Source of the DNA: Escherichia coli
GTDB lineage: Bacteria > Pseudomonadota > Gammaproteobacteria > Enterobacterales > Enterobacteriaceae
DNA: 64,000 nt
Assembly: GCF_044324785.1 (NCBI RefSeq)
Contig: NZ_CP172127.1
Strand: one strand, 5' to 3'
The notes under the pieces were generated by a model. That model made no database searches and was not told the DNA's origin. It was given only the letters and a program-made list of their open reading frames with translations. Made by a program: the position numbers and the translations under genes. This document shows positions 7,970 through 61,302 of this stretch, piece after piece; the first letter of the stretch is position 1, and each line of letters starts with the position of its first letter.

Positions 7970-7973
7970 CAAA

Positions 7974-8378
7974 ATGAAAACTAAAGTCATTCTTAGCCAG
8001 CAAATGGCGAGTGCAATTATTGCCGCAGGTCAGGAAGAGGCGCAGAAAAATAACTGGTCTGTTTCCATTGCTGTTGCTGATGACGGCGGTCATCTGCTGG
8101 CGTTAAGCCGCATGGACGATTGCGCGCCGATTGCGGCTTACATCTCCCAGGAGAAAGCGCGTACCGCCGCGCTGGGGCGTCGTGAAACTAAGGGCTATGA
8201 AGAGATGGTGAACAACGGACGTACCGCGTTCGTGACTGCGCCGTTACTGACGTCGCTAGAAGGTGGCGTACCGGTTGTTGTGGATGGGCAAATTATTGGT
8301 GCCGTGGGCGTTTCTGGTTTAACCGGAGCACAGGATGCGCAGGTCGCGAAAGCGGCAGCAGCGGTGTTGGCGAAATAA
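7974..8378 (+). CDS. glcG: GlcG protein (DUF336 / heme-binding-like)
   Basis: 134-aa product from ATG 7974 (MKTKVILSQQMASAIIAAGQEEAQKNNW...); the track start at 7956 is TTG. Confidence 0.88.
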   Translation: MKTKVILSQQMASAIIAAGQEEAQKNNWSVSIAVADDGGHLLALSRMDDCAPIAAYISQEKARTAALGRRETKGYEEMVNNGRTAFVTAPLLTSLEGGVPVVVDGQIIGAVGVSGLTGAQDAQVAKAAAAVLAK

Positions 8379-8399
8379 GCGAAAACGAGGAGATAAACA

Positions 8400-32246: not shown

Positions 32247-35200
32247 ATGAAATCAATATTGTATTATTTAGAGCCACGTACAGAATTAAATGACAAATTA
32301 TTTCGCTATGCAACACTACGCTCTTATCTACTACCTGAAATTGATGGCCTTAGGATAGCTGATAAGAGCCTCGATTTTAAAATGATCGTTTCTCGTACGA
32401 TTTATAATAAAGCAAAACAAAATAATTTAAAAATGGAGGGTATCGATTTTATAATTATTGATGAAGATGTATTTGAAAAGAACTCATATCTGAAGAATAT
32501 TAATGTTAGTAATGAATTATATCATGGGAATTTAAATATAAAGGCTAATGAAGAACTAAAATCAATCATATCTGCTTGCCTTCCTGTTGATTATAAACCA
32601 GATATTATTATTTCATATGAAAGCCCAGCTCCATTTTTTAAAGAGATATTTCCATCATCTTTACTTTTAAACGCTATGTTTGGAATTTTTTCAAGGGCAC
32701 CATTTCCTGCATATGGGTTATTAGACCCATGTGGTTTGTATGAATATTCATATCAATATAAATATGCTGATAAAATTCGTGCTGAGGAGATTTCAGAAGA
32801 AGAAAAGGAAGTTATAAAATTACTCAGAAGACAAAGTTCAAGAGCACTTGCTGCTTATCATCCTCTCAAGAAATATATTTCATCATTATATGAAAAATAT
32901 GATCGACTTGTTGTATTAGCATGTCAAGTGGATAACTATTTTTCTTATAATAGTTGTACCAATTATCCATCACAATATGCGATGGTGGAAGATGTTCTTT
33001 CTCAAGTTCCATCAAATATTGGTGTTATAGTTACAGAACATGGCTATAAAAGACAAATAAGTGACGAGCAAATTGAGTCTTTAAATGAAAAATACAGTAA
33101 TTTTATATATTTTTCTAAAAAAGATGTATTCACACCAAGTCAATTTATTCTTCCTTATGTAGATGGTGCTTTATCAGTCTCGTCATCGATTGGTTATCAG
33201 GCTGCTTTATGGCAGATTCCATATTTTGGTCTTGGAAAATCACAAGTCGATGTACTCTGTTCAAATACATCATTAATGAGCTTCGTTAATGATGTTGAAA
33301 AAGGCATAAAGATTGATCGTGATAATATTCTTTATGTTTTACTTTCAAAAGTTCACTTATCACATAAAAATGATTTGTTTAATGGAAAATCTTATCTAAA
33401 TAAGTTGAAGGATTTATTTAATAAGTTTACCTCTAATTGCGACGAATATGAGTATTTTAACACTAAAAAAAGTATTGATGAAGTTCGAAAAGATATCATC
33501 TGTGGCAACAGAGAATGGTTACTTAAAAAAAACTTTATTGACTCAAAATTAGTTCCTGAAGTAGACCATTTACGTGTTGCAATGTCGCATTCAAAAGCGA
33601 TCTCTTATGATCTTTTTGATACTCTTGTTGAACGTGATTTTGTTGAACCTCATGAATTATTTAATCTAATTGAATCCCGTGTACGTAATGAGTTAAACAA
33701 TAAAAACTTCCCTTTCTATTATGTAAGACGACAAGCCGAAATTGACTTGCGCAGAGAGACAAGAGGTGAGTTTGAAATTACTCTCGATGAAATTTACGAA
33801 AGATTTCCAAGATACTTTGATCTTACTTTAGAACAACTAGAGAAGATAAAAAATATAGAAATAGATGCTGAAGTCGAACTCGTTCATCCGAAAAAAGAAA
33901 TGGTTCGTGAATTTTATTTTTCTCAAATGATTTGTGAAAGTGTATCTATCATTACAGATATTTATCTTTCTCAGAATGTTATTGAGCGTATTTTACAAAA
34001 AGTAAAAATTAGTGGTTACAATAAATTATTGGTTTCAGCAGAAACTAAAACAAGAAAACATAACGGAACTATTTATCCTGAATATTTGAAATATATAAGA
34101 GATAATTTTGATATTAATGCAGGACAGGCTCTTCATGTCGGTGATAATAAACAAGCTGATGGTGATATGGCTAAAAAACATGGCATAAAAACATATGTAT
34201 TTCAAAAAGCGATTGATAATTACAAAAAATCTTTAATTGCTGATATTTTACGTTCCAGTATTAATCATCCAGGTATTTCGAGTTCTGTTATTAATGGTTT
34301 GTTTGCTAACAAATATCACGCAGGACACTGGTTTAAAATTAACAAGGAATCAATTTTTAATGCTGACGAATATAATTATGGCTATATGGCAATAGGGCCT
34401 CTTGTTGTTGGCTTTACTCAGTGGTTGTATCGGCGGGTTAATAAATTAGGTATCAAAAAATTATATTTCTTATCCCGCGATGGATGGATTCTTAAAAAAA
34501 CATTCGATTATTTTTATCCTGAATCATCATCTGGCATCAAGACCGAATACCTGTACAGCTCTCGTCGAACTGCAATGGTAGCATCGTTAAGAAATATTGA
34601 TGATATTATTGAAGTTGCCTCTCAAAACTTCAATGCTAGAAAGCTAAGTGACTTTTTATCTACTCGTTTTGGGCTGGATGTGGATACTGTTAAAAAATCT
34701 GTTCTTGAAAAATATAATTACAAGCATGACACTATTGTTTCTCCTTATTTTGAATTTGGAAAGCTGATTGGTTTTTTAAAAGATATTCATCATACAATAT
34801 TGTCTAATGCAAAAAATGAACGTGAAAGCTATATCGATTATTTACGAGAAACTGGATTTGAAAATGATTGCTTAAATGGCGGTGCTACTGTTGTTGATAT
34901 TGGTTACAGTGGTTCCATGCAATATTATTTAAAAAAAATACTGCAATGCCCTTGTGTGAACGGATTTTATTTTTTAACACATCACCATAGTCGTGATTAT
35001 TTTTCAAATGATCATTTTGAAGGTTTCTTGCAAAATCTTGATGATCATAAGATCGCTTATAGACATGGATTAAATGATCATGTGTTTATTTTTGAAGCAG
35101 CATTAAGTTCCCCTGAAGGAAGTCTGATTAAAATGGAAGGGAAAGGTCAAGAAAGAGAAATGATTTTTCTCGAGGCAGAAGAAGAGATTGTAAGAAAAAA

Positions 35201-35756
35201 TGCTCTATTAGGAACACATCGTGGCGTAATGGACTTTGTTCATGATATCAAAACTCGTTTTGGTTCTTACTTTAAATACATTGAATTTTCTCCTATTCTT
35301 TCTTCTCAACTTATTTTGAATTTTGCGAATAATCCCAACGGTATAGATGCAGGGATGTTTGCTTCTCATGAAGTCGAAAATGTTTTTGGTGGGGGGTCTG
35401 TATGCTTAATTTCGCCTTTACTAGATTGCTATAAGGACTCTAATGGCACCATTAACCCTAAAATTATCGATGAGTTATTAAAAGCATCTAAATGGAAGAG
35501 AGGTGCCAGTGCTTATTATAACTTAGTCAATGGAACTCAACCGCGAGTTAATCCTGCTAAAATGCCAGCGCCATCTGTTAACCCAGTTGTTGTGAAGCAA
35601 ACGCCACAAACTACTTATGCACATCCTTTAAAGACAACTACGCAGCGTAAACTTGCTAAGTTAAAAAAAGACCCATATTTATTCTTTAATGATTCCCAAA
35701 AACCTCTTTTAAAAAGTTTACGATTGTTCTTCAAAAATACATCAAAGCTTAATTAA
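32247..35756 (+). CDS. Putative multidomain capsule polymerase of kps region 2 (KpsC/KpsS-like glycosyltransferase domain + HAD-like phosphatase domain + uncharacterised C-terminal domain)
   Basis: 1169-aa ORF with AAAAGGAG Shine-Dalgarno; strongly AT-rich. The N-terminal part carries SVSSSIGYQAALWQIPYFGLGKS, resembling the TS..GFEALL...P.YAGWG motifs of KpsC and INSTAGISAL of KpsS in this window. Central HAD motifs DLFDTLV (33609-33629) and GDNKQADGD (about 34140-34166). Basic C-terminal tail. Confidence 0.6.
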   Translation: MKSILYYLEPRTELNDKLFRYATLRSYLLPEIDGLRIADKSLDFKMIVSRTIYNKAKQNNLKMEGIDFIIIDEDVFEKNSYLKNINVSNELYHGNLNIKANEELKSIISACLPVDYKPDIIISYESPAPFFKEIFPSSLLLNAMFGIFSRAPFPAYGLLDPCGLYEYSYQYKYADKIRAEEISEEEKEVIKLLRRQSSRALAAYHPLKKYISSLYEKYDRLVVLACQVDNYFSYNSCTNYPSQYAMVEDVLSQVPSNIGVIVTEHGYKRQISDEQIESLNEKYSNFIYFSKKDVFTPSQFILPYVDGALSVSSSIGYQAALWQIPYFGLGKSQVDVLCSNTSLMSFVNDVEKGIKIDRDNILYVLLSKVHLSHKNDLFNGKSYLNKLKDLFNKFTSNCDEYEYFNTKKSIDEVRKDIICGNREWLLKKNFIDSKLVPEVDHLRVAMSHSKAISYDLFDTLVERDFVEPHELFNLIESRVRNELNNKNFPFYYVRRQAEIDLRRETRGEFEITLDEIYERFPRYFDLTLEQLEKIKNIEIDAEVELVHPKKEMVREFYFSQMICESVSIITDIYLSQNVIERILQKVKISGYNKLLVSAETKTRKHNGTIYPEYLKYIRDNFDINAGQALHVGDNKQADGDMAKKHGIKTYVFQKAIDNYKKSLIADILRSSINHPGISSSVINGLFANKYHAGHWFKINKESIFNADEYNYGYMAIGPLVVGFTQWLYRRVNKLGIKKLYFLSRDGWILKKTFDYFYPESSSGIKTEYLYSSRRTAMVASLRNIDDIIEVASQNFNARKLSDFLSTRFGLDVDTVKKSVLEKYNYKHDTIVSPYFEFGKLIGFLKDIHHTILSNAKNERESYIDYLRETGFENDCLNGGATVVDIGYSGSMQYYLKKILQCPCVNGFYFLTHHHSRDYFSNDHFEGFLQNLDDHKIAYRHGLNDHVFIFEAALSSPEGSLIKMEGKGQEREMIFLEAEEEIVRKNALLGTHRGVMDFVHDIKTRFGSYFKYIEFSPILSSQLILNFANNPNGIDAGMFASHEVENVFGGGSVCLISPLLDCYKDSNGTINPKIIDELLKASKWKRGASAYYNLVNGTQPRVNPAKMPAPSVNPVVVKQTPQTTYAHPLKTTTQRKLAKLKKDPYLFFNDSQKPLLKSLRLFFKNTSKLN

Positions 35757-35764
35757 TATAATGT

Positions 35765-35794
35765 GAGTCGCACTATGGTGTGACTCTTTTTTAT
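35765..35794 (+). terminator. Putative intrinsic terminator between the two region 2 genes
   Basis: Hairpin agtcgcac-tatg-gtgtgact followed by a T6 run directly after the polymerase stop codon. Confidence 0.5.
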
Positions 35795-35874
35795 ATGTCA
35801 GTGATAGTTATTAATGAAATATTTAATGCGCGAAGGTGTACGATTTTTACAATATTTAGAGACTGGTGGGTCAA

Positions 35875-36885
35875 ATGAGTATTTCTTTGAAAAATATTGA
35901 TTTTGCTAAAGGTCCTGTTGATTCCCTCCATCATGATTATTACTTATGGCGAGGGAAGAACATTGAGGATAAAAGACTTTTTCTCGTTTTCTCATCTCGG
36001 GGAGCAGGTCCTGGAGAATTTAGTTTTTTCAAAACTTTTGATGCGCTTAATGTAAATGTTTTGCATGTTACACCCTCTGATTTTTCATGGTACCAAAAAG
36101 GGTTAGTCGGTTTAGGGAGTGATTTGCCTTCTGCATTTAAAGCCCTATCTGACCGAATAGATAATTTCTGTATTTATCATAAAATAAAACAAATTATCTG
36201 TGTAGGGGCTTCCATGGGAGGATATGGTGCTTTAATTTATGGGGCTTTATCTAGTAGAAAAATAAAAACAACACTTATTCTTTTTGGCACCGAAACAATA
36301 TTAAAACTTCCTTATTCTAAAAGTTCTGAGAGTGAATTTGATATTCTCAAAAAATTTAAAGATGTAAGGTTTCTAGATTATTCTGATCTTGATGTGAATA
36401 TGATATTTGGTGAGTTTGATATTGTAGATACTTATTGTGCTTTATCGATGCGACATGATCGAAATTTTTCATTTTTTTCATGCACTAGCGCCTCACATGT
36501 TGTTCCGGAATACTTAAATAGACAAATTGGAATTGTTAATTTTTTTACAGACTTCTTATCGGGTGGAAGATCTTTTATTGGAAGAGGCCACATTGCTTCT
36601 GAGCTTTATCCTGAGGATATTTCTCCTCTTCTGTTCTCGAAACAATTTACTGAGGAATACAATAATGCCCTCCTCTGTTGCTTGAAAAAATATCCTTCAT
36701 TTGGGTTTGCATGGAATAGATTAGGCGTATATTTACACAATATAGGAGATCTGGCTGGGTCTTTAGCAGCATTAAAAAGAGCATTTTTCATCAACCCTGA
36801 TTATCCAAATACAATTGAGCATCTTAACTCGGTAAGAAATAAACTAAAAACTTTTAGTTTTTATGTATACTTGTGTGAGGAATGA
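35875..36885 (+). CDS. Alpha/beta-hydrolase-fold protein of kps region 2, candidate capsule-modifying enzyme (possibly O-acetyltransferase or esterase)
   Basis: ATG 35875 (MSISLKNIDF...) 7 nt after GGTGGG; nucleophile-elbow motif GASMGG near 36201-36221; low GC like the polymerase gene. Confidence 0.5.
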   Translation: MSISLKNIDFAKGPVDSLHHDYYLWRGKNIEDKRLFLVFSSRGAGPGEFSFFKTFDALNVNVLHVTPSDFSWYQKGLVGLGSDLPSAFKALSDRIDNFCIYHKIKQIICVGASMGGYGALIYGALSSRKIKTTLILFGTETILKLPYSKSSESEFDILKKFKDVRFLDYSDLDVNMIFGEFDIVDTYCALSMRHDRNFSFFSCTSASHVVPEYLNRQIGIVNFFTDFLSGGRSFIGRGHIASELYPEDISPLLFSKQFTEEYNNALLCCLKKYPSFGFAWNRLGVYLHNIGDLAGSLAALKRAFFINPDYPNTIEHLNSVRNKLKTFSFYVYLCEE

Positions 36886-36934
36886 ATAGCAATATATCTC
36901 AATATCTAAGAGCTGGTTTTTATATCGTTCATAG

Positions 36935-38143
36935 TTATAATTTTTTTACTTTTATTTGTTTTCTTACTCTATCCCCATAATAAACCCCATTAACCTGCGT
37001 CTTCACCAATAAATACCCCCGAAACTTCTTAAACAGTTTCATATCCGGTTTAAAATCGGCCTGCCAGAACTGGTGCAAATGCCCTTGATACGTCAAGCCT
37101 TTGATGTCGTACAGGGCATTGCCCATCACTTTGAGTGGTTTGTTGTGAATCAGCGCAGATATCCCCGCCGTACTGTTAATTGTCACCACCGCTTTTGCGT
37201 GGCGTAACAATTCCGGCATCGGGAGATCGTGCACATAAATGACTCGTTCCCCTAAGCCATATTCCTTACTCAACCGCTTAATTAATGGTCGATAGAGTCT
37301 GTGACCACGATCCATTGGATGGTGCTTGATCACCAAATAACTTTCTTTCGGTGCTTTACGTGAAAATGAGTACATGACTTCATTAATATAGTCACGCACA
37401 TCGTTATAATTGCTGTGGTTACGAATCTGGCTATCGTTATACACCTGCAAAACGGCAAGATAATAACGCTGATCCAGCTCATTCATTAACCTCGGCAATA
37501 CCTTACGCTGTGTTACCTTGTAAAGTTGCTTGCGCCAGTATGCACGAACCCAGCAACGTGCTTCATACCAGGGGGAAAACGATTTATGGTGGCGGTAGCG
37601 AGGGAACTCATGGCGGTAATGCCAGCCCATCAGGTAATACCACATCGCATGACCTATACGTTTCATCGTTGAAGGTTTTAAGTTCTCAACGTGCGGCGCA
37701 GGCATATCTGGTAACTTACGATAAAAATCCGGATCGCGCGGTAGCGATGAATATGCGTTTACTCCGCCTTCTTCAACGGTTATAAATTGCGGGCGTAAAT
37801 ATCCTTCTTCAAATGCCAGAAAGCGGAGCCCTTTCGACTTTGCCCAGCGTTTTGCTTCTTTATGCAATGGGCGACAGTCACCAAAACAGAGGATGGTATC
37901 AAAGTCATATTGCCGGTGGAGATCCCGTAACCATCCGGGGAACTCTTTCGGCGTTTGGTAGTAGGCCAGGTATTGTCGATGGCGGCAGTAAAAACGATCC
38001 CCACCGTTGAATACAACATTCACAGCGTTACGTCCTAATGACTCTAACCATTCGGCGACGTCATTGAAAAAAGGTCCCATCGGCCCCTGCAATAGCAGAT
38101 ATTTTTTACCGGATAATAAAACGGTTAGTGCATTACCTTGCAT
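36935..38143 (-). CDS. kpsS: Capsule biosynthesis protein KpsS (Kdo transferase for the glycolipid anchor)
   Basis: 402-aa ORF with INSTAGISALIHNKP motif; convergent with region 2, first region 1 gene encountered from the right. Confidence 0.9.
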   Translation of the reverse strand: MQGNALTVLLSGKKYLLLQGPMGPFFNDVAEWLESLGRNAVNVVFNGGDRFYCRHRQYLAYYQTPKEFPGWLRDLHRQYDFDTILCFGDCRPLHKEAKRWAKSKGLRFLAFEEGYLRPQFITVEEGGVNAYSSLPRDPDFYRKLPDMPAPHVENLKPSTMKRIGHAMWYYLMGWHYRHEFPRYRHHKSFSPWYEARCWVRAYWRKQLYKVTQRKVLPRLMNELDQRYYLAVLQVYNDSQIRNHSNYNDVRDYINEVMYSFSRKAPKESYLVIKHHPMDRGHRLYRPLIKRLSKEYGLGERVIYVHDLPMPELLRHAKAVVTINSTAGISALIHNKPLKVMGNALYDIKGLTYQGHLHQFWQADFKPDMKLFKKFRGYLLVKTQVNGVYYGDRVRKQIKVKKL

Positions 38144-54176: not shown

Positions 54177-55049
54177 TCAGAAGAAAATCCAGTTCCATAC
54201 CGCGCGGGCAACAGAGACCACGGTGTCACGGACGGCACGCAGAACCGTACGAGCCACAGAGGCAACACAGACGCTCTCCGCCGTGTCAAATATCCGGTCC
54301 ACCGCACCGGTAAACTGTTCACGGGCCTGCCCCCGGACAGATTCCGTGCACAGCTCGTCCTGCAGGCGGGTCATCAGGGGACTGGCGGCATGGTCGGGAA
54401 GTGCTGTCATGAGCGCACTGACCAGCGTATCCAGTTCCCAGCCGGTGCGGGCCGATACGGCCACAACCGGATGTACGGGCCGGAACAGCCGGAATACCGC
54501 ATCTGTTTTCTCACGAATGTTCTGTTCCTGTGCGGGAGAAGGCTGAATACCTGCCATATCCCATTCATGGCAGGGCTCCGTTTTGTCGGCCTGCGTCACC
54601 ACAAACAGCACCTGCTGATGTCCCCGGTGCAGGATGTGTCGCCAGAAATAGTCATCCACAGACAGGGCCCGGTCATCGGCTTTAATCAGCCACAGTACCA
54701 GGTCAAGTTCAGGCAGAATGTCACGGTACAGGGCTTCATACTCTGCATCCCTGTCCCGGCTCTCGCCCACCCCGGGCAGGTCAGTGATAACCATGCTGTG
54801 ACCATGGCCACTCAGACGGAAGCGCTGCACTTCCCGGGTGCCGGCGTGAACATCACTGACCGGGGTGACCTCCCCCTGAAACAGTGCATTACAGAGTGAG
54901 GATTTACCGGCCCCGCTTTTTCCCATAATGCCAATCACGGGTTCGTGGCTGGTGAGTTTGCGCAGATGTTCCAGGATGTGACGGGAAAGTGAGTAAGGCA
55001 GGGAGGAGAGCGGTTTTTCAATTGCCTCAATGGCATCAGACGGATTCAT
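54177..55049 (-). CDS. YeeP/YfjP-family GTPase (50S ribosome-binding GTPase domain)
   Basis: Start at ATG 55049 (MNPSDAIEAIEKPLSSLPYSLS...); P-loop GIMGKSGAGKSS; located upstream of flu as in CP4-44. Confidence 0.75.
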   Translation of the reverse strand: MNPSDAIEAIEKPLSSLPYSLSRHILEHLRKLTSHEPVIGIMGKSGAGKSSLCNALFQGEVTPVSDVHAGTREVQRFRLSGHGHSMVITDLPGVGESRDRDAEYEALYRDILPELDLVLWLIKADDRALSVDDYFWRHILHRGHQQVLFVVTQADKTEPCHEWDMAGIQPSPAQEQNIREKTDAVFRLFRPVHPVVAVSARTGWELDTLVSALMTALPDHAASPLMTRLQDELCTESVRGQAREQFTGAVDRIFDTAESVCVASVARTVLRAVRDTVVSVARAVWNWIFF

Positions 55050-55278
55050 ACATGTATTCCCGGTGAAAAAAGACAAAACCCCGCGCACCGGAAAGGTGGC
55101 GGGGGGATTCACGGAGATAATATCTGCCTGAAATTATTTGGAATGCAGGTATATGTGGCTGATTTGTATCAGCTAATGAGTACAGGTCTGAATCTAATCT
55201 GACAGTCCGCTCTGTGCCAGGAGCGGACATTGTTTTCCAACTATTACCTAAGCCTGCGAACCATCTCATCTTCACCCC

Positions 55279-56166
55279 TTAAATTCTCAATGTATCGATA
55301 ACCGCTCGTAGGGCGGGTGACACATTGCGGTGCGGATAATAGATATATGAACCCTCCAGGCGTTGGCTGTAGCATTGCAAAACTCTGATTAGCGCCCCCT
55401 GTTCTATATCATCAGACACTAATTCCTCCGGAACATAAGCCAGCCCCAGACCTAGCCTTGCGGCTTTGGCTTCCATATAACTGTCAGCAAAGGCCCATTG
55501 TCCCTGAGGCTGATGGGTGATCTTTTTACCGTCCTGATTGAGTTCCCAGGCATACAGACTGCCGTCGCCGAACTGGTAAGCGATGCAGGGATGACCTACT
55601 AAATCGGTGGGGGTTTGTGGAAATCCGTAGCGCTGAAAGTGCCCGGGCGTGCCGACAACAGCCATCTCCATATCGGGCGAAATGCGCACCGCAACCATAC
55701 CGCTATCCACTTCCGAGCCCAGACGTATACCGGCATCGAAGCGCTCAGTAATAATATCGACAAACCGGCTTTCGCTGATGAGCTCCAGCCGAATATCCGG
55801 GTATCGTTGTTTAAACACCGCCAGCTTCGGCAGCAGCACTTTATCAATGGCGTGCTGGCTCGCATTAATTCGGACCGTACCCGATGGTGTATGGCGATAA
55901 TGGGCCAGCGTGGCAAGCCCCATATCTAAGGCGTCAAATCCAGATTCGACGTTTCGATAGAGTAACTCGCCGGCATGGGTGAGCGATAACTTGCGCGTGG
56001 TGCGTACCAGAAGCTGCACGCCCAGTCGCTCTTCCAGCTCGCGCACTGCACGGCTAATTCCTGACTGCGCCAGGCCAAGCCTCTGCGCGGCGGCGGTAAA
56101 ACTCCCTTCTCGCACGACCTGCATAAACAGATAGAGATCGTTATAGTTTTCCCGTTTCGCCATCAT
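55279..56166 (-). CDS. LysR-family transcriptional regulator
   Basis: 295 aa with N-terminal HTH (FTAAAQRLGLAQSGISRAVRELEERLGVQLL) and LysR substrate-binding domain; divergent from the hydrolase gene. Confidence 0.8.
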   Translation of the reverse strand: MMAKRENYNDLYLFMQVVREGSFTAAAQRLGLAQSGISRAVRELEERLGVQLLVRTTRKLSLTHAGELLYRNVESGFDALDMGLATLAHYRHTPSGTVRINASQHAIDKVLLPKLAVFKQRYPDIRLELISESRFVDIITERFDAGIRLGSEVDSGMVAVRISPDMEMAVVGTPGHFQRYGFPQTPTDLVGHPCIAYQFGDGSLYAWELNQDGKKITHQPQGQWAFADSYMEAKAARLGLGLAYVPEELVSDDIEQGALIRVLQCYSQRLEGSYIYYPHRNVSPALRAVIDTLRI

Positions 56167-56333
56167 CCTTCCCCTGCTGCATCACAATTCAGAACAATAT
56201 GTTATTAATCTTAGCATTTTTTACCCTCTAATTAGCACTATTAATGCTAACTATAATGTGCGCGTTGCAACAAAGCACAGCAGTGTTATCCGTATGAAAC
56301 CAGTATCTGGCACATTTTATGAGGGGGATTTTG

Positions 56334-57470
56334 ATGACTGCTTTCACCCAAAAATTGACAGCCGCGATATCCACCATGCTGTTATGCGTATCATTAAGTG
56401 GAGTCACAAATATGAGTTACGCTGATACAACCAATCCGAACGCGCCCGTTTCGCAGGTCGAGAAATGGGATAAAACTTTTGCTGAGAGCACGAAAGTTGA
56501 TCACCGTAAGGTGACCTTTCCGAACCGGTACGGGATCACCTTAGTCGGGGATCTCTATATACCGAAGGATCGTGGCGATCGCAAGATGGCAGCAATTGCT
56601 GTTAGTGGCCCCTTCGGGGCGGTGAAAGAGCAATCCAGTGGCCTGTATGCGCAGACGCTGGCTGAACGGGGGTTTGTCACTCTGGCTTTTGACCCTTCAT
56701 ACACGGGGGAAAGCGGCGGCTACCCGCGAAACGTCGCATCTCCGGATATCAACACCGAGGATTTCAGCGCGGCGGTTGATTTCTTAGGCCTGCAAAAAGA
56801 GGTGGATCGCAACCGTATCGGGTTGCTCGGCATCTGCGGATGGGGTGGCATGGCCTTAAACGACGCCGCGATGGACACACGTGTCAAGGCGGTGGCGAGC
56901 AGCGTGATGTATGACATGAGCCGTGCAATGGGGCATGGCGTGGGCGATGGCAAAGACCGCTATACCACTGCCGATCGTCGTGCCGTATTGCAGTATTTGA
57001 ACATGCAGCGCTGGAAGGATGCTGAAAATGGCGCTTTCGCGCCAGGCGGGCATGATATTTACGTTGATGAGAAGGGCAACGTCACCGCTTCCGATCGTAT
57101 TTTACCGGAAACTTTGCCAGCGAATTCTAATCCGGTATTGAAAGAGTTCTTTGATTATTACCGCATGCCGCGTGGTTTCCATGCGCGTTCGGTCAACTCA
57201 ACCAGTGCCTGGAATGCAACCATGCCGCTGTCATTTATGAATATGCCGCTGCTGAGTTACGCTAATGAAGTTACTATCCCTACACTCATCGTGACCGGTG
57301 AAAAAGCCCATTCACGCTATTTTGCTGAAGATGCCTTTAAGGCAATCGGCAGCAAAGAGAAAGAGTTAGTGATTGTCCCCGAGGCAAACCATGTTGATCT
57401 GTACGACAACGTTGCGGGTAAGATCCCATTTGCCAAATTTGAGCAATTTTTCAAGGCAAACTTAAGATAA
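56334..57470 (+). CDS. Secreted alpha/beta-hydrolase-fold protein
   Basis: ATG 56334 with GAGGGGG Shine-Dalgarno; predicted signal peptide (MTAFTQKLTAAISTMLLCVSLSGVTNMSYA); GICGWGG nucleophile-elbow-like motif. Confidence 0.55.
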   Translation: MTAFTQKLTAAISTMLLCVSLSGVTNMSYADTTNPNAPVSQVEKWDKTFAESTKVDHRKVTFPNRYGITLVGDLYIPKDRGDRKMAAIAVSGPFGAVKEQSSGLYAQTLAERGFVTLAFDPSYTGESGGYPRNVASPDINTEDFSAAVDFLGLQKEVDRNRIGLLGICGWGGMALNDAAMDTRVKAVASSVMYDMSRAMGHGVGDGKDRYTTADRRAVLQYLNMQRWKDAENGAFAPGGHDIYVDEKGNVTASDRILPETLPANSNPVLKEFFDYYRMPRGFHARSVNSTSAWNATMPLSFMNMPLLSYANEVTIPTLIVTGEKAHSRYFAEDAFKAIGSKEKELVIVPEANHVDLYDNVAGKIPFAKFEQFFKANLR

Positions 57471-57646
57471 CCCGAAAGGTTTACCAGGCCACCTGTCGTA
57501 AACGGGTGGCTTTTAACTGCCTGGTGTGATGCAGAATATGCCGCATCTCCCTATATTCTCACCCAACTATTATGTCGTTATTCCCTGAATAACTTCTGAC
57601 CCGATTGCGCTTGAATCTGGCTGGTTCGATATTAAGGGGGCTAATA

Positions 57647-58840
57647 ATGTCCACTGTAAGTCTCAAACAATTATACGGAAAAACGCATGCATACTGGAGC
57701 GGCGTATTCGCCATGACGCTTTGCGTGTTTGTGCTGATCGCTTCTGAGTTTATGCCAGTCAGCCTGCTTACGCTCATTGCCCATGATTTGCACGTTACCG
57801 AAGGGCTGGCAGGGCAAGGAATTGCTGTCTCTGGTGCGCTGGCGGTGCTTACCAGTCTGACTATCTCCCGTATTACCGGAGACCTGAATCGAAAATATCT
57901 TCTGCTGGGGCTGACGGCCTTAATGGCCATATCGGGAATAGTTATCACCATAGCACCTGACTATCCGGTTTATATGCTGGGGAGGGCCCTGATTGGTATC
58001 GTCATTGGAGGGTTCTGGTCAATGTCGGCTGCAACCGCCATTCGGCTCGTGCCGAAGCAGCATGTCCCCCGCGCACTGGCAATTTTTAACGGCGGAAACG
58101 CACTGGCCACCGTTGTGGCAGCGCCACTTGGTAGCTATCTGGGGACAACCATCGGCTGGCGTGGGGCCTTTTTATGTCTGGTCCCCCTTGCGATAGCTGC
58201 GTTCATCTGGCAATGGGTCAGTCTGCCTCCGATGGAAAGTGATAAAACACAAAAGCTACAGAGATCTGTGCTTCGCCTGTTCAGCGTTGCCATCGTACCA
58301 ACGGGACTGCTGGCCTGCGGACTCTTCTTTATGGGACAGTTTGCTTTATTTACCTACGTGCGCCCCTTTCTGGAGAGCGTCACCAGAGTGGGACCTTCTG
58401 ATCTTTCTCTGATTTTGCTCGCAATAGGTGTAGCAGGTTTTGTCGGCACAATGATCGTCTCAACATTCCTGAACACCATATTTTATAAGACCTTAATAAT
58501 GATCCCGTTGCTTATGGCAGCGATTACCGGTGCGTTACTGCTGGTCGGACACCATATCTGGGCTGTTGCCGTTTTACTCAGCCTGTGGGGGCTACTTGCG
58601 ACAGCTGCGCCAACGGGGTGGTGGACATGGATAGCACGCGCGTTACCCGAAGATGCAGAGACGGGGGGAGGCCTCATGGTTGCAGTGATTCAGTTATCTA
58701 TTGCACTTGGTTCAACGGCTGGAGGTCTGGTATTCGACAGTCTGGGATGGAGAAGTGCTTTTGGTTTAAGTGGTTTGTTACTTCTGGGAGCGGTAGCGAT
58801 GACATGTGCCACATCCCGTCAAAACAGGAAGGCGCAGTAG
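57647..58840 (+). CDS. Major facilitator superfamily transporter
   Basis: ATG 57647 with AAGGGGG Shine-Dalgarno; about 12 predicted TM helices; MFS-like loop motif GRALIGIVIGGFWS. Confidence 0.8.
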   Translation: MSTVSLKQLYGKTHAYWSGVFAMTLCVFVLIASEFMPVSLLTLIAHDLHVTEGLAGQGIAVSGALAVLTSLTISRITGDLNRKYLLLGLTALMAISGIVITIAPDYPVYMLGRALIGIVIGGFWSMSAATAIRLVPKQHVPRALAIFNGGNALATVVAAPLGSYLGTTIGWRGAFLCLVPLAIAAFIWQWVSLPPMESDKTQKLQRSVLRLFSVAIVPTGLLACGLFFMGQFALFTYVRPFLESVTRVGPSDLSLILLAIGVAGFVGTMIVSTFLNTIFYKTLIMIPLLMAAITGALLLVGHHIWAVAVLLSLWGLLATAAPTGWWTWIARALPEDAETGGGLMVAVIQLSIALGSTAGGLVFDSLGWRSAFGLSGLLLLGAVAMTCATSRQNRKAQ

Positions 58841-61302
58841 CGCAATCCTTTTATTTCTGGCGTACGCTCTTTAAGGCATCCGGCTGAGAGGCTAATGATC
58901 ACTCCTCGCTCACAACGGACCTTCAGCTCAGCCGCTCCGGCCGCTTCATGCCATGAATGTACGCAGCCAGTCAGAATATTAAGGTGCGGATTTCAGTTCA
59001 CTTGTCAGCCCAGTGATACAGGACAGTAATGACCAACAATTTGGTATTGATACAACAAGTTGCGGCCCCGGTTCGTGGGGGAGATGAAACGACGGTAGCT
59101 GAAGTTACTGAAATGAAGAATTCAGAGAGACTGAATGATATGCCTCACCTTTAGTGAATAGTGTAAAAACGGGAGACTCTCACCCGAGATTATCCACTCA
59201 TGCTCAATGTATAATTTTCGTGCCCCTCACAGGTAAGAGCCGGATGCATTCGTTGTGTACGTTGCAGAATTGGTAACCGGGGACCCTGCAGTCTTTAACT
59301 CCGAGTCTTGTGCTGCTCATTTGCCACAAAATCCTGGTACGCCAGCTCAATCATTTCATTCAACAGTTTTTTTGGGGGGCACCACGACTTCGGGCAATAC
59401 TTTCAGGCTGTTTGTGGATTTTTCCGGACAGTTTCAGCGGAACGGAACCATCAGCACGTTCATCACGCCTTTTTTGTTGCTCCCGGGCACTTTTCAGTTC
59501 ATCCACAATATAGCTGCTCTTCTCGCATTTTTGCCGATTTTAAAAATGCGAACAAAACATCCGTACATGATGTACAGATTAAACTGCCAGGGACTGGTGT
59601 CAGAAAGCCTCCGGTTAGCCTGCTCTTTCCGGAATGTGCCGGTTATGAAAAACCGGAAATTCAGTCTCTGTTGTAAGATGTACCCTCTGATACTACGTTT
59701 TCGTTTTCTCTGTGTATTTAACTCACTGTATTTATTGTCTTTTTAAGCCTGACTGATATTCTCCGGTCATAGTGTGCCGGATAGACATCCCGTAACCTTC
59801 TCATTTTTATATAAAAATACCTGCACTGTCTTCAGCGCATCTGTCTCCTTTAAGTAAAAAATGTTTTCACGTATTGCTGTAAATTCATTTTAAATCAGTA
59901 TGTTATCCTGATATTGCTGTCTCCTGGTTTGATGCGTAATCGTTCTGCCTTTCTGGATGATTCTGGTGCTTCCGGGTGCATTCTCCTCTGCACATGCAAC
60001 AGTTCGTCATCGCCACGTGCCCAAAAAGCATATAAAAACGAATCGAATCTGATCGTTTTTTCAATCGTTTTTCACAGGAATTTCGTAGGGTGTTCTCCGC
60101 TATAGCCTCCATATTTGCTGTCTTTTTCTTCATAAATCGTATGCAATATAACCAGTCTGTCAAGACATCTTCCCTGCTGTTGAGGTGACGATCTCATTTC
60201 TGGTCTTTTCCGGGAGAGAGACGGTCAGATGAGCGAGCCGGATTTACTGCCAGAGGTACTCCCCGCGGCAGAAAATAGTGCTCCTGTTTCCGCAATCCGG
60301 GATCGGCAACGTCCCATGGTTAATGCCACTTGCAGCGTCAGGCACTGCAGGTTTACGTCGTGATCTGATTTCTTCTGCACTTATCCCGATCACGGAAGTT
60401 CCCCCTGCGCAGACATCGGTTCCTGCCGACATCTCACAATACCGCCAGGCTGTCATGCAGTAACACCCGCAATGCGGTCTGCGGTTTTAAGCGCACTCTC
60501 CTGTTTTCAGTGCACCGATAAGCGTTATAGAAAGTCTGGGGTGAGTTACTGAATGTCTGTTAAGTGGTGCCGTGGGTGGAGACTGCTTACTTTTCCACAG
60601 CAACTGCAGTCATTCAGGATGCTCAGGAGAGAATATGTCAACGCCACGAGCCGGGCCATTTTCATGCCAGCCAGTATATTTTCTACACTGATGCAGTCTG
60701 ATTTTCACCATTCCATCCTCACTGATTGTCGTGTTGTTTTGGGTCATCACCACAGCTTTCCGTTTCTCTTTTAATCGGTAACGCTCTCCTTTGATATTCA
60801 GCGTGGTTGAGTGATGCAGCAGTCAATCCAGGAGCGCTGTTGTCCGGCAACCACCATATCAACTTCTTCCCGGCGTGCCGGCGCTGGTATCCAGGCCGGG
60901 TTTCGAAGCGAAGCGTTCCTGACGGACTCATTGACATCCGGGCCGGATGTAGTCATGCAGCATGGAACGTCCGCCCGTATACACTGACGGCGTCCGGCCG
61001 TGTACAGAGATCGGTAAAATTCGTTACTACAACTGTTCCTGAATATCTGACGAAGAAACATTCAGCAATAACATCCGGCCGTGTACATCTCTTTTGCGGT
61101 GCAGGGAGCACTGTCGCCATGTACTTATTGTCACCAGGGTGAGGCATGTACCGCAGCATGCCAGCTCAGCAATGACAGGATGCCCTTAAGACATCCGTCA
61201 TGGCTCAGTATGATGACGACGAACACGCTCTGCAGGTGAGCATGCAGGGCCGGGGGTATCATCATTTCCGTATTTTGCCGCACCTTCCGGAAACAACCGG
61301 CA

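What the first reader, a model, noticed from the sequence alone, without database searches (positions are those of the whole stretch)
55279..58840. Island cargo: divergent LysR regulator with secreted alpha/beta hydrolase and MFS transporter
A LysR-type regulator is divergently arranged with a signal-peptide-bearing alpha/beta hydrolase and a downstream MFS transporter, both with good Shine-Dalgarno sequences. The layout suggests a substrate-inducible uptake or detoxification module carried as island cargo; the substrate cannot be deduced from sequence.
Basis: inference. Interest (0 to 1): 0.35.

Follow-up and report, generated by a model that had tools for sequence, protein, structure and literature searches.

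The report
LysR, exported cysteine hydrolase, MFS cassette
This is a real but fairly ordinary three-gene accessory cassette (a regulator, an exported cysteine-type hydrolase and a probable efflux pump) sitting in a variable slot of an E. coli genomic island; the same trio occurs in many proteobacteria, including the Pseudomonas aeruginosa PA2218-PA2220 (opdE) locus, and its substrate is still unknown.

Summary
Three genes lie at the stated coordinates: LysR 55279-56163(-), hydrolase 56334-57470(+) and MFS 57647-58840(+). Both downstream genes have good Shine-Dalgarno sequences, and the hydrolase has a Sec-type signal peptide. The window is E. coli. The cassette-specific DNA is 55232-58901, filling a slot that holds other genes in related islands, so "island cargo" holds.

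The trio is a conserved unit. A diverged copy (83/87/71% aa identity) lies beside paoD in about 830 E. coli genomes, including O157:H7. The same trio, in varying gene order, occurs in Klebsiella, Serratia, Enterobacter, Vogesella, Luteimonas, Brevundimonas, Paracoccus and P. aeruginosa (PA2220-PA2219/opdE-PA2218).

The hydrolase belongs to the uncharacterised PA2218/YcjY family (PDB 2HDW, 5XB6). Its nucleophile is Cys168, paired with His353. The regulator-hydrolase pair is a paralog of K-12 pgrR-ycjY. The characterised relatives of the MFS (NepI, SotB, Cmx) are exporters, so efflux or detoxification is favoured over uptake.

A conserved stem-loop directly after the hydrolase stop codon makes simple co-transcription uncertain. 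The substrate remains unknown. Verdict: a new member of a known kind, of low to moderate interest.

The parts
55232..58901 (.). Cassette-specific DNA: the cargo segment inserted in the island backbone
   Evidence: blastn against the related island of strain ECO3183 shows the shared backbone ending at 55231 and resuming at 58902. The same slot holds other genes in ECO3183 and SBF22. Homology to orthologous cassettes in other genera spans only about 55276-58855.
55279..56163 (-). LysR-type transcriptional regulator, 294 aa (an alternative ATG at 56166 gives 295 aa); paralog of K-12 PgrR/YcjZ
   Evidence: Pfam HTH_1 and LysR_substrate. 40% identity over the full length to PgrR (E=4e-73), against 33% to YafC. 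83% to the O157 copy and 43% to the P. aeruginosa neighbour of PA2218. The nearest solved structures are CrgA and AphB.
56164..56333 (.). Divergent control region (170 bp) between the LysR and hydrolase genes
   Evidence: Phylogenetic footprint across six Enterobacterales cassettes.
56191..56218 (.). Distal conserved block AGAACAATATGTTATTAATCTTAGCATT, containing ATTAATC (56204-56210) and TTAGCA (56211-56216); candidate high-affinity LysR site and LysR-gene promoter region
   Evidence: Nearly invariant in six orthologous spacers. The O157 version forms the perfect palindrome ATTAATCTTAGCATTAAT. ATTAATC-type dyads lie beside the LysR gene in Mesorhizobium, Brevundimonas, Paracoccus and K-12 pgrR-ycjY. 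TAATC is enriched in these spacers: 17 observed against about 3 expected (the motif was chosen post hoc).
56232..56250 (.). Proximal dyad TTAGCA-N7-TGCTAA, lying over the -35 position of the hydrolase promoter; candidate activation site
   Evidence: Perfect inverted repeat. The core AGCA-N7-TGCT is kept in five of the six orthologs (E. cloacae reads ATCA in the left arm), and the outer bases co-vary: T-A in the island copy and C-G in two Enterobacter copies. The core pattern alone is not rarer than chance in the window (1 found, 1.18 expected).
56252..56257 (+). TATAAT, a consensus -10 hexamer of the presumed hydrolase promoter; no good -35
   Evidence: TATAAT is invariant in all six orthologous spacers. 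The consensus scan found no full sigma-70 promoter here, because the -35 is poor. This fits an activator-dependent promoter (inference).
56334..57470 (+). Exported alpha/beta hydrolase of the PA2218/YcjY family, 378 aa. Signal peptide codons 56334-56423. Nucleophile Cys168 (56835-56837), His353 (57390-57392), probable acid Glu323.
   Evidence: PDB 2HDW E=2e-121 and YcjY 5XB6 E=1.4e-40. AF2 model pLDDT 83; Foldseek TM 0.92 and 0.89. C168, H353 and D355 are invariant in 17 diverse members, and members lacking the Cys mostly lack the His as well. Cys168 is the only Cys in the mature protein.
57486..57514 (+). Stem-loop (11 bp stem) followed by TTTT, 16 nt after the hydrolase stop; terminator-like attenuator or RNA 3'-end element
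   Evidence: The region including the stem-loop (63-66 nt folded) gives dG -23 kcal/mol, z = -2.6. An equivalent hairpin with base changes that preserve pairing occurs in the O157, Serratia and Enterobacter MAG copies, and a different hairpin at the same place in E. cloacae. It falls below the T-run criterion of the terminator scan. There is no Rfam family match.
57647..58840 (+). MFS transporter, 397 aa, about 12 hydrophobic segments; ortholog of the P. aeruginosa MFS beside PA2218 (PA2219/OpdE)
   Evidence: MFS_1 E=1.7e-39. The best NCBIfam hits are NepI (275 bits, below the 584 cutoff), a sugar efflux transporter and Cmx. The nearest solved structure is the SotB sugar efflux transporter. 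61% identity to the P. aeruginosa neighbour of PA2218 and 71% to the O157 copy. Hydropathy.

Best explanation
This is a self-contained, horizontally moved three-gene cassette that deals with one small molecule at the cell envelope.

The LysR protein is a paralog of E. coli PgrR. It binds ATTAATC-type sites in the 170-bp divergent spacer and controls its own promoter and the hydrolase promoter. The hydrolase promoter has a consensus -10, no usable -35, and a dyad lying over the -35 position, which is the usual design of a promoter switched on when a LysR protein binds its effector.

The transcript encodes a Sec-exported alpha/beta hydrolase of the PA2218/YcjY family. In the periplasm it uses Cys168 and His353, probably with Glu323, to cleave an acyl-type bond (ester, thioester or lactone; possibly an amide) through a thioester intermediate.

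A conserved stem-loop directly after the hydrolase stop codon lets only part of the transcripts continue into the MFS gene. The MFS is an OpdE/NepI/SotB-like 12-helix carrier that most likely pumps the same compound, or its product, out of the cytoplasm. Together the two proteins would form a two-layer protection: destroy the compound in the periplasm and expel what gets in.

Shown here: the genes, their families, the conservation of the trio, the cargo boundaries, the Cys/His conservation, the conserved spacer blocks and the conserved hairpin.

Inferred: regulation by the LysR protein and whether it activates or represses, periplasmic location, the chemistry, the direction of transport, and the identity of the compound, which is unknown.
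For: Gene identities.

Conserved unit: a second E. coli copy has the same order and orientation. An MFS ortholog (42-75% identity) is adjacent in 14 of 80 loci from other species and a LysR ortholog in about 12, with varying gene order, which argues for selection on the neighbourhood. The trio is also found in K. michiganensis and P. aeruginosa.

Cargo.

Catalytic residues. The nucleophile elbow is GICGW in PA2218 and GICAG in YcjY as well. The nearest characterised folds are thioesterases and esterases: DcsB, GrgF, PET46, and feruloyl and chlorogenate esterases. A distant relative, UilS, is a proven AHL lactonase (PMC11633161).

Export: signal-peptide features are conserved, and most family members carry Sec, lipoprotein or Tat signals.

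Regulation: the regulator-enzyme pair is paralogous to pgrR-ycjY. In K-12, PgrR binds the shared spacer and the regulon includes ycjY-ymjDC-mpaA (PMC5934670, citing Shimada et al. 2013). Conserved spacer blocks, the dyad and the TATAAT are, and the TAATC enrichment.

Attenuating hairpin.

Efflux: all characterised relatives of the MFS are exporters. No catabolic genes travel consistently with the trio. Where the MFS is absent, the hydrolase's recurrent neighbours are redox or detoxification-type genes: Cyclophilin-like2, hexapeptide acetyltransferase, CMD-cupin, FMN reductase, SDR and AKR.
Against: No substrate, no expression data and no phenotype exist for this cassette. Literature searches found nothing for PA2218, and for YcjY only its membership of the PgrR regulon.

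Transport direction rests on family resemblance alone, and the canonical antiporter motifs were not found with strict patterns.

PgrR is annotated as a repressor, so the cassette's LysR may repress rather than activate.

The dyad core is not statistically unusual in the window, and the TAATC motif was chosen after looking at the data. P. aeruginosa's spacer has no exact TAATC.

The hairpin has only four U's and failed the terminator scan. It may stabilise the mRNA rather than terminate transcription.

Export of the hydrolase is not specifically linked to the presence of the MFS (Fisher p=0.68), so that test gives no support for coupling. Most family members (66 of 80 loci) have no adjacent MFS.
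Confidence: 0.5

Rival explanations
1. Scavenging or uptake module. The periplasmic hydrolase releases a usable product from an external ester or conjugate, the MFS imports the product, and the LysR protein senses it in the cytoplasm and induces the genes.
For: The layout is equally compatible with this reading. Some relatives in the MFS hit list are of unclear direction, such as AraJ, and others are symporter families with weak scores. The antiporter motifs are not recognisable. In the O157, Klebsiella and Pseudomonas contexts the cassette sits among oxidoreductase or aldehyde-dehydrogenase genes that could process a product.
Against: The best-scoring characterised relatives are exporters: NepI, SotB and Cmx. 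No catabolic gene is consistently linked to the trio across species. The island cassette brings no further metabolic genes with it.
Confidence: 0.2
2. Cell-wall peptide turnover. By analogy with the paralogous pgrR-ycjY-mpaA cluster, the hydrolase is a cysteine peptidase acting on murein-derived peptides in the periplasm, the MFS moves such peptides, and the LysR protein senses them, as AmpR and PgrR do.
For: Both the regulator and the enzyme are paralogs of PgrR and YcjY. In K-12 these sit with mpaA, ycjG and mppA, which are murein tripeptide genes (PMC5934670). Pfam gives weak peptidase S9/S15/S33 hits. The P. aeruginosa MFS ortholog OpdE affects expression of OprD, a basic amino-acid and peptide porin (PMC12690498, citing Huang 1992).
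Against: No mpaA, ycjG or mppA-type genes were found among the recurrent neighbours of the PA2218 subfamily in 80 loci. The closest characterised folds are esterases and thioesterases, not peptidases. The MFS is not AmpG-like. YcjY's own activity is unknown.
Confidence: 0.1
3. Quorum quenching. The hydrolase is a periplasmic acyl-homoserine-lactone lactonase, and the cassette degrades and expels foreign signals.
For: The best NCBIfam hit for the hydrolase is the UilS AHL-lactonase family (E=2e-18). UilS is a proven lactonase annotated as a dienelactone hydrolase (PMC11633161).
Against: The score is 67 bits against a cutoff of 400 and covers only residues 78-198. UilS is cytoplasmic and much smaller (PMC11633161). 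The family is conserved at 50-60% identity in many phyla that do not use AHLs, such as Bacteroidota, Firmicutes and Helicobacter.
Confidence: 0.05
4. The three genes are merely neighbours with unrelated functions that were transferred together by chance.
For: Most family members (66 of 80 loci) have no adjacent MFS. The hairpin could mark separate transcription units.
Against: The trio recurs in alpha-, beta- and gamma-proteobacteria with rearranged order. All three proteins are orthologous between the two E. coli versions and P. aeruginosa. The transferred segment contains exactly these three genes.
Confidence: 0.05

Closest known systems
Pseudomonas aeruginosa PA2220 (LysR) - PA2219 (OpdE, MFS) - PA2218 (hydrolase; crystal structure 2HDW)
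   Same: All three proteins are orthologous: the hydrolase matches at 2e-121 with about 57% identity, the MFS at 61% and the LysR at 43%. The LysR gene is divergent and the two other genes lie on the opposite strand. The hydrolase has the same GICGW cysteine elbow.
   Different: The gene order is LysR-MFS-hydrolase rather than LysR-hydrolase-MFS. PA2218 has a lipoprotein-type signal (LVGC) rather than a Sec type I signal. The locus is chromosomal rather than island cargo. The assignment of the PA2219/PA2220 numbers to the MFS and LysR genes rests on position and on the annotation 'membrane protein OpdE', not on a direct look-up. Function is unknown apart from the reported effect of opdE disruption on OprD and imipenem resistance (PMC12690498).
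E. coli chromosomal cassette beside paoD (O157:H7 and about 830 other complete genomes)
   Same: Same three genes, order, orientation, spacer motifs and post-hydrolase hairpin.
   Different: 78% nucleotide identity and 83/87/71% amino-acid identity. It sits at a different chromosomal site and has a shorter hydrolase-MFS spacer (75 nt against 176 nt). PGAP calls its hydrolase without the signal peptide, at 352 aa.
E. coli K-12 pgrR (ycjZ) - ycjY pair
   Same: A divergent LysR regulator and a YcjY-family cysteine alpha/beta hydrolase, with both proteins paralogous to the cassette's (40% and 33% identity). Shared ATTAATC and CTAATCA elements occur in the spacer. PgrR binding to this spacer is published (PMC5934670).
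   Different: YcjY has no signal peptide (306 aa) and is co-operonic with mpaA rather than with an MFS gene. PgrR is described as a repressor tied to peptidoglycan recycling.
AmpR-AmpC type units (a LysR regulator divergent from a periplasmic hydrolase gene)
   Same: A divergently transcribed LysR regulator controlling an exported hydrolase that inactivates a small molecule in the periplasm (established knowledge, used as an analogy only).
   Different: There is no sequence relationship between the hydrolases: a serine beta-lactamase fold against an alpha/beta hydrolase with Cys. There is no linked MFS, and the effector here is unknown.
Dienelactone hydrolase (Cys-His-Asp alpha/beta hydrolases)
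   Same: Alpha/beta fold with a cysteine nucleophile at the elbow. The Pfam DLH hit is borderline (21.6 bits against a cutoff of 21).
   Different: Only a distant relationship. This protein has a roughly 120-residue lid insertion (residues about 195-316 in the model) and is exported.
NepI / SotB / Cmx MFS exporters
   Same: 12-helix MFS_1 carriers and the best-scoring characterised relatives.
   Different: The scores are far below the equivalog cutoffs (275 against 584 for NepI), so substrate specificity cannot be transferred. The protein falls into its own orthologous group with OpdE.

Membership tests
LysR-type transcriptional regulators (LTTR) | N-terminal winged helix-turn-helix (PF00126) plus a C-terminal LysR substrate-binding domain (PF03466), about 300 aa | tested here: met
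   HTH_1 residues 9-67, E=6.8e-24; LysR_substrate residues 93-294, E=3.5e-36; 294 aa. Full-length match to the CrgA structure 3HHG, E=3e-41.
LysR-type transcriptional regulators (LTTR) | Divergent transcription from a regulated gene, with a dyad (T-N11-A type) box in the spacer | tested here: inconclusive
   The divergent layout is met. Conserved dyads are present. However, the proximal dyad centred on 56241 reads G-N11-C rather than T-N11-A, its core is not rarer than chance, and a literal centred T-N11-A is seen only in some distant orthologs such as Mesorhizobium TAATCGATGCAGTCGATTA.
LysR-type transcriptional regulators (LTTR) | Effector-dependent DNA binding and regulation of the neighbouring gene | not testable with these tools
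   Supported only by analogy with the paralog PgrR (PMC5934670).
PA2218/YcjY family of alpha/beta hydrolases (COG1073-like) | Significant full-length sequence and fold similarity to 2HDW and 5XB6 | tested here: met
   phmmer E=2e-121 and 1.4e-40. Foldseek TM 0.92 and 0.89, rmsd 2.4-2.6 A.
PA2218/YcjY family of alpha/beta hydrolases (COG1073-like) | Nucleophile elbow with Cys, a catalytic His near the C-terminus (A-x-H-x-D-L-Y-D), and an invariant VKEQ motif after strand 3 | tested here: met
   C168, H353, D355 and K98-E99-Q100 are invariant in 17 diverse members. Of five representatives lacking the Cys, four also lack the His.
PA2218/YcjY family of alpha/beta hydrolases (COG1073-like) | Third triad residue (acid) | tested here: inconclusive
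   Glu323 sits at the canonical post-strand-7 position and is D or E in about 14 of 17 members, but it is not invariant.
PA2218/YcjY family of alpha/beta hydrolases (COG1073-like) | Hydrolytic activity and substrate | not testable with these tools
   No member of the close family has a published activity.
UilS family AHL lactonase (NCBIfam NF047920) | Score at or above the curated equivalog cutoff (400 bits) | tested here: not met
   67 bits, covering residues 78-198 only.
PET hydrolase-like (Pfam PF12740) | Pfam gathering score, and a serine nucleophile as in PETases and cutinases | tested here: not met
   The domain score of 34.2 bits is above the cutoff of 28, but it covers only residues 61-202. 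The nucleophile is Cys, not Ser. The similarity is at fold level only.
Major facilitator superfamily, NepI (PRK10213) equivalog | MFS_1 domain with about 12 transmembrane helices | tested here: met
   MFS_1 at 136 bits. A 6+6 pattern of hydrophobic segments.
Major facilitator superfamily, NepI (PRK10213) equivalog | Score at or above the NepI equivalog cutoff (584 bits) | tested here: not met
   275 bits. The protein is related to NepI but is not NepI.
Major facilitator superfamily, NepI (PRK10213) equivalog | Drug:H+ antiporter signature motifs (motif A, motif C) | tested here: inconclusive
   Not found with strict patterns; only degenerate resemblances.
Genomic-island cargo | Present in some but not all related islands, with sharp boundaries against a shared backbone | tested here: met
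   Present at >=95% identity in 102 of 5,426 complete E. coli genomes. Backbone homology breaks at 55231 and resumes at 58902, with alternative cargo in the same slot. The flanks carry typical island genes: Ag43, a YeeP-like GTPase, CbtA/CbeA, an antirestriction gene and an AlpA-like gene.

The most novel reading that the evidence does not exclude
The LysR / exported Cys-hydrolase / OpdE-like MFS trio could be a dedicated 'export and cleave' system for an endogenous reactive or signalling metabolite. The MFS would move a conjugated compound out of the cytoplasm and the periplasmic cysteine hydrolase would cleave it. Loss of the system would let the compound build up and reprogramme envelope permeability. 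That would explain the unexplained 1992 observation that opdE disruption lowers OprD and raises imipenem resistance in P. aeruginosa. It would also assign a first function to a very widespread hydrolase family whose structure is solved but whose function is unknown.
Probability: 0.12. Interest if true: 0.55.

Novelty: new member of a known kind. Interest (0 to 1): 0.3.

Why it matters
In itself the cassette is a routine piece of accessory DNA, already annotated generically in about 100 complete E. coli genomes.

Three things give it some value.

First, it is one of the smallest and cleanest natural packages of a protein family that is extremely widespread: more than 6,000 clusters at 50% identity, with 50-60% identity between phyla. 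The family is mostly exported and has two crystal structures, yet no member has a known substrate.

Second, the work links three separately annotated loci into one family of regulator-enzyme(-pump) units: the E. coli island cassette, the chromosomal cassette beside paoD in O157 and other strains, and P. aeruginosa PA2218-PA2220 (opdE). K-12 pgrR-ycjY is a paralog of the regulator-enzyme pair.

Third, this gives concrete handles for experiments: a candidate operator, a Cys168/His353 active site, and an old imipenem/OprD phenotype in Pseudomonas.

If the substrate turned out to be a host, dietary or antimicrobial compound, the presence of the cassette in extraintestinal E. coli islands would become relevant to fitness.

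Tried and rejected
(1) K-12 yagP, a LysR fragment beside paoD, as a remnant of the O157-type cassette. Rejected: only 28% identity to the cassette's LysR.

(2) Statistical support for the proximal dyad from its frequency. The core AGCA-N7-TGCT occurs once in the window against 1.18 expected, so support comes only from position and conservation.

(3) The sigma-70 promoter and terminator scan found no promoter on the + strand in either spacer and did not call the post-hydrolase hairpin. The hairpin was found by eye and by folding.

(4) The test that MFS-linked hydrolases are preferentially the exported ones found no association (12 of 13 against 56 of 66; p=0.68).

(5) The codon-position substitution pattern in the 26 N-terminal codons of the hydrolase showed no third-position bias. 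The long start is supported instead by the open frame, an in-frame indel, the Shine-Dalgarno position, and signal peptides in distant homologs.

(6) Rfam scan of 54900-59400: only a sub-threshold chance hit on the hairpin.

(7) PADLOC defence models: no hits.

(8) Strict motif A and motif C searches in the MFS: nothing.

(9) K. michiganensis as the recent donor of the island cassette. Rejected: 92% amino-acid identity for the hydrolase but only 78% nucleotide identity across the cassette. The donor is unknown.

(10) Literature. Nothing functional on PA2218. For YcjY there is only its membership of the PgrR regulon and an old, untested suggestion that it might be a cPHB polymerase because of a GXCXG motif.

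(11) UilS as a close relative. Rejected: the score is far below the cutoff.

Full report
**1. What is there**

The ORF list for 52-64 kb shows three long ORFs at the reported place:
- a 295-aa ORF on the minus strand (55279-56166);
- a 383-aa ORF on the plus strand (56319-57470);
- a 411-aa ORF on the plus strand (57605-58840).

Pfam identifies them as a LysR-type regulator (HTH_1 E=6.8e-24; LysR_substrate E=3.5e-36), an alpha/beta hydrolase with only weak family hits (PETase-like 2.3e-8; DLH, S9 and S33 marginal), and an MFS_1 transporter (1.7e-39).

The window is E. coli. The 3.56-kb region is 100% identical to strain D8 and others, where PGAP annotates the same three genes with starts at 56163, 56334 and 57647.

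Those starts fit the raw sequence. GAGGGGGA lies 6 nt before ATG 56334, and AAGGGGG lies 6 nt before ATG 57647. ATG 56334 and its Shine-Dalgarno sequence are conserved in orthologs, whereas the upstream in-frame ATG is not consistently placed.

**2. The cassette is cargo in a variable island slot**

The flanks are typical of E. coli integrative islands. To the left are the Ag43 adhesin, a YeeP-like GTPase, CbtA/CbeA, an antirestriction gene and DUF932. To the right are decayed fragments and an AlpA-like gene. The group 2 capsule (kps) cluster lies further left.

A 7-kb query around the cassette shows that thousands of E. coli genomes share the flanks, but only 98 have the whole stretch.

In strain ECO3183 the backbone is shared up to window 55231 and again from 58902. 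Between these points that strain has DUF2971, GNAT and hypothetical genes instead. Strain SBF22 has a single 383-aa hypothetical gene.

The cassette-specific DNA is thus 55232-58901. That is the three genes plus 47 and 61 bp.

Homology to orthologous cassettes in Klebsiella, Serratia and Enterobacter begins at the LysR stop and ends near the MFS stop. The unit that moved is therefore exactly these three genes.

The island hydrolase is closer in protein sequence to Klebsiella and Citrobacter versions (91-92%) than to the other E. coli version (87%). At the DNA level, however, K. michiganensis is only 78% identical, so the donor is unknown.

**3. The trio is a conserved unit**

About 830 further complete E. 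coli genomes, including O157:H7, match the LysR-hydrolase part at 78% nucleotide identity.

In O157:H7 the locus lies between a ykgR fragment and paoD and has the same three genes in the same order and orientation. Amino-acid identities are 83% for LysR, 87% for the hydrolase and 71% for the MFS. Some strains carry both versions.

A scan of one genome per species found 595 relatives of the hydrolase. The best 80 loci span Proteobacteria, Bacteroidota, Firmicutes, Melainabacteria, Helicobacter and Brachyspira at 51-62% identity.

In 14 of these loci an ortholog of the MFS (42-75% identity) is adjacent. In about 12 a LysR ortholog (40% or more, full length) is adjacent. Gene order varies between LysR-hyd-MFS, LysR-MFS-hyd and MFS-hyd. 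Rearrangement with retention is the signature of a functional association.

K. michiganensis has the identical layout in an ordinary chromosomal context.

P. aeruginosa has LysR(-), MFS(+), hydrolase(+), where the hydrolase is PA2218. Its MFS is 61% identical (E=2e-159) and its LysR 43% identical to the cassette proteins. By position, and by the annotation 'PA2219 opdE membrane protein OpdE', these are PA2219 and PA2220.

**4. The hydrolase**

Its closest solved relatives are PA2218 (2HDW, E=2e-121) and E. coli YcjY (5XB6, E=1.4e-40), both deposited without a function.

An AlphaFold model built from a 17-sequence alignment is confident (pLDDT 83, core above 90). It shows a canonical alpha/beta core with a lid of about 120 residues between strands 6 and 7.

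Foldseek ranks 2HDW (TM 0.92) and YcjY (0.89) first. Next come a Chloroflexus hydrolase, the fungal thioesterase DcsB, GrgF, the archaeal PET46 esterase, feruloyl and chlorogenate esterases and monoglyceride lipases. All of these perform acyl-transfer chemistry on esters or thioesters.

The nucleophile elbow reads G-I-C-G-W, with cysteine in place of the usual serine. In 17 diverse members (36-87% identity) C168, H353, D355, the K98-E99-Q100 motif and several Asp/Arg residues are invariant. Of five representatives with Gly or Ser in place of Cys168, four have also lost His353. That co-variation supports a catalytic Cys-His pair.

The acid is probably Glu323. It sits at the canonical position and is D or E in most members, but this is not settled.

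Cys168 is the only cysteine of the mature protein.

The N-terminus has the features of a Sec signal peptide, and these are conserved in the Enterobacterales orthologs. One ortholog has an in-frame 9-nt deletion there. PA2218 has a lipobox instead. Many alpha- and beta-proteobacterial orthologs have twin-arginine motifs. About 85% of the 80 family members examined carry some export signal. The family is therefore essentially extracytoplasmic.

The best NCBIfam hit, the UilS AHL lactonase, scores far below its cutoff (67 against 400 bits). UilS is cytoplasmic (PMC11633161).

Literature searches found no functional work on PA2218. For YcjY they found only its membership of the PgrR regulon and an old, untested proposal that it might be a cPHB polymerase because of a GXCXG motif.

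**5. The regulator and the spacer**

The cassette's LysR is 40% identical over its full length to K-12 PgrR/YcjZ (E=4e-73). That is closer than to YafC (33%), its best NCBIfam hit. The hydrolase is 33% identical to YcjY.

In K-12, pgrR and ycjY are divergent neighbours. PgrR binds their spacer, and its regulon includes ycjY-ymjDC-mpaA (PMC5934670, citing Shimada et al. 2013).

The cassette's regulator-enzyme pair is thus a paralog of an experimentally supported regulatory pair. This is the best available support for LysR-dependent control.

A six-way footprint (two E. coli, three Enterobacter, one Serratia) shows three conserved features:
- a distal block (56191-56218) containing ATTAATC-TTAGCA;
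- a proximal dyad TTAGCA-N7-TGCTAA (56232-56250), whose outer bases co-vary between the island copy and two Enterobacter copies;
- an invariant TATAAT (56252-57) with no usable -35.

ATTAATC-type dyads next to the LysR gene, followed by CTAATC(A/G), recur in Mesorhizobium, Brevundimonas, Paracoccus, Luteimonas, Vogesella and K-12 pgrR-ycjY. TAATC is enriched in these nine independent spacers: 17 observed against about 3 expected, with 0 of 5,000 shuffles reaching the observed count.

Several caveats apply. The motif was chosen after inspection. P. aeruginosa has no exact copy. The proximal dyad core is not rare by chance. PgrR is described as a repressor, so the sign of control here is open.

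**6. The hairpin between the hydrolase and MFS genes**

Sixteen nucleotides after the hydrolase stop codon, an 11-bp GC-rich stem (57486-57512) is followed by TTTT. The region including it folds at dG about -23 kcal/mol, z = -2.6.

The O157, Serratia and Enterobacter MAG copies keep the stem with pairing-preserving changes and different loops. These three have an A-run before and a U-run after the stem, like bidirectional terminators. E. cloacae has a different hairpin at the same place, followed by a U-rich tail.

In those copies only about 35-40 nt separate the hairpin from the MFS start. This leaves little room for a promoter, so the MFS is probably expressed by read-through at a lower level than the hydrolase.

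The island copy has an extra 100 nt or so, with no convincing promoter. The element failed the terminator scan's T-run criterion and matches no Rfam family.

Equal co-expression is unlikely.

**7. The transporter**

Its best characterised relatives are:
- NepI, a purine ribonucleoside efflux pump (275 bits, cutoff 584);
- a sugar efflux transporter;
- Cmx/CmrA chloramphenicol efflux pumps.

The only solved relative is the SotB sugar efflux transporter. Hydropathy shows a 6+6 arrangement, but strict antiporter motifs are not found.

Its P. aeruginosa ortholog OpdE has an old phenotype: disruption raises imipenem resistance through loss of OprD expression (PMC12690498, citing Huang et al. 1992). 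That is an indirect effect without a mechanism.

**8. Synthesis**

The most economical reading is a LysR-controlled envelope module for one small molecule. A periplasmic cysteine hydrolase cleaves an acyl-type bond, and an OpdE-like exporter removes the compound or its product from the cytoplasm.

Several observations favour protection over nutrition:
- no catabolic partner travels consistently with the trio;
- the MFS's characterised relatives are exporters;
- where the MFS is absent, the family's recurrent neighbours are redox or detoxification-type genes: Cyclophilin-like2, hexapeptide acetyltransferase, CMD-cupin, AraC, FMN reductase, flavodoxin, SDR and AKR.

The uptake reading, a link to murein peptides suggested by the pgrR-ycjY-mpaA paralogy, and quorum quenching remain possible at lower probability.

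A test of whether export of the hydrolase correlates with MFS linkage was uninformative (p=0.68).

**9. Novelty and score**

The cassette is annotated generically in RefSeq and has orthologs with solved structures. It is a new member of a known kind of unit: a divergent LysR regulator with an exported hydrolase and a pump.

What is new here:
- the recognition of the trio as a conserved unit across proteobacteria, including PA2218-PA2220/opdE;
- the paralogy to pgrR-ycjY;
- the cysteine active site;
- the conserved attenuator-like hairpin;
- the exact cargo boundaries.

Interest is low to moderate (0.3). It would rise if the substrate proved to be an antimicrobial or host compound, or if the Pseudomonas porin phenotype were explained through this system.

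Noticed in passing
window 56334-56423; L002 8067-8144: PGAP annotates the O157 ortholog of the hydrolase at 352 aa, starting at Met27 ('MSYAD...'), and 352-aa forms are also on record for Klebsiella orthologs. The short form deletes the signal peptide. The same pipeline aa in strain D8. The long form is supported by the conserved open frame, an in-frame 9-nt indel in E. cloacae and the Shine-Dalgarno position. The short calls would mislabel the protein as cytoplasmic.
   Followed up: partly
window 55145-55231 and 58902-59503; L085, L086: The position between the YeeP-like GTPase gene and the AAA-ATPase remnant is a variable cargo slot of this island family. Other strains carry DUF2971 + GNAT + hypothetical genes, or a single 383-aa hypothetical gene, at the same place.
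   Followed up: partly
window 55205-55228: A perfect 9-bp-stem palindrome (GTCCGCTCTGTGCCAGGAGCGGAC) lies on the backbone side immediately next to the left cassette junction (55231/55232). Whether it plays any role in cargo exchange is unknown.
   Followed up: no
window 58902-61300: The right flank consists of decayed fragments: a frameshifted hypothetical gene, a partial AAA-ATPase gene, and a stretch at about 60655-60850 with 84% identity to IS21 istB. This indicates an old, eroded insertion-sequence remnant beside the cassette.
   Followed up: no
proteins P0146, P0171, P0246: A subgroup of the hydrolase family has lost both Cys168 (replaced by Gly) and His353 and carries an extra C-terminal domain of about 150 aa. 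These are probably non-catalytic derivatives.
   Followed up: no
protein P0137: This homolog has Trp at almost every position where the family has a conserved Gly. That is what would be seen if a gene from a UGA=Gly organism (genetic code 25) had been translated with UGA=Trp.
   Followed up: no
loci L012, L024, L028, L036, L039, L057, L061, L069, L073, L079, L080: Orthologs in many alpha- and beta-proteobacteria and in Helicobacter carry twin-arginine (RR-x-[FL]-[LI]) signal peptides. Enterobacterales use Sec-type signals, and Pseudomonas and some Bacteroidota use lipoboxes. The same enzyme is thus exported by three different routes.
   Followed up: partly
L002 (O157:H7) 6997-10472: The chromosomal version of the cassette lies directly beside paoABCD, which from general knowledge encodes a periplasmic aldehyde oxidoreductase. 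K-12 has paoABCD without the cassette, and its neighbouring LysR fragment yagP is unrelated (28% identity).
   Followed up: yes
E. coli genomes NRZ14408, Rb-50, WP9-S17-ESBL-11 and others: Several strains have two matching places in the same chromosome, which probably means they carry both the island cassette and the paoD-linked cassette, two diverged copies of the same trio.
   Followed up: no
window 32000-37000: A sharp drop in GC content to about 30% occurs upstream of the island. It overlaps capsular polysaccharide biosynthesis genes annotated from about 35.3 kb onward (XcbB/CpsF family, a hypothetical gene) and probably marks the serotype-specific part of the capsule cluster.
   Followed up: no
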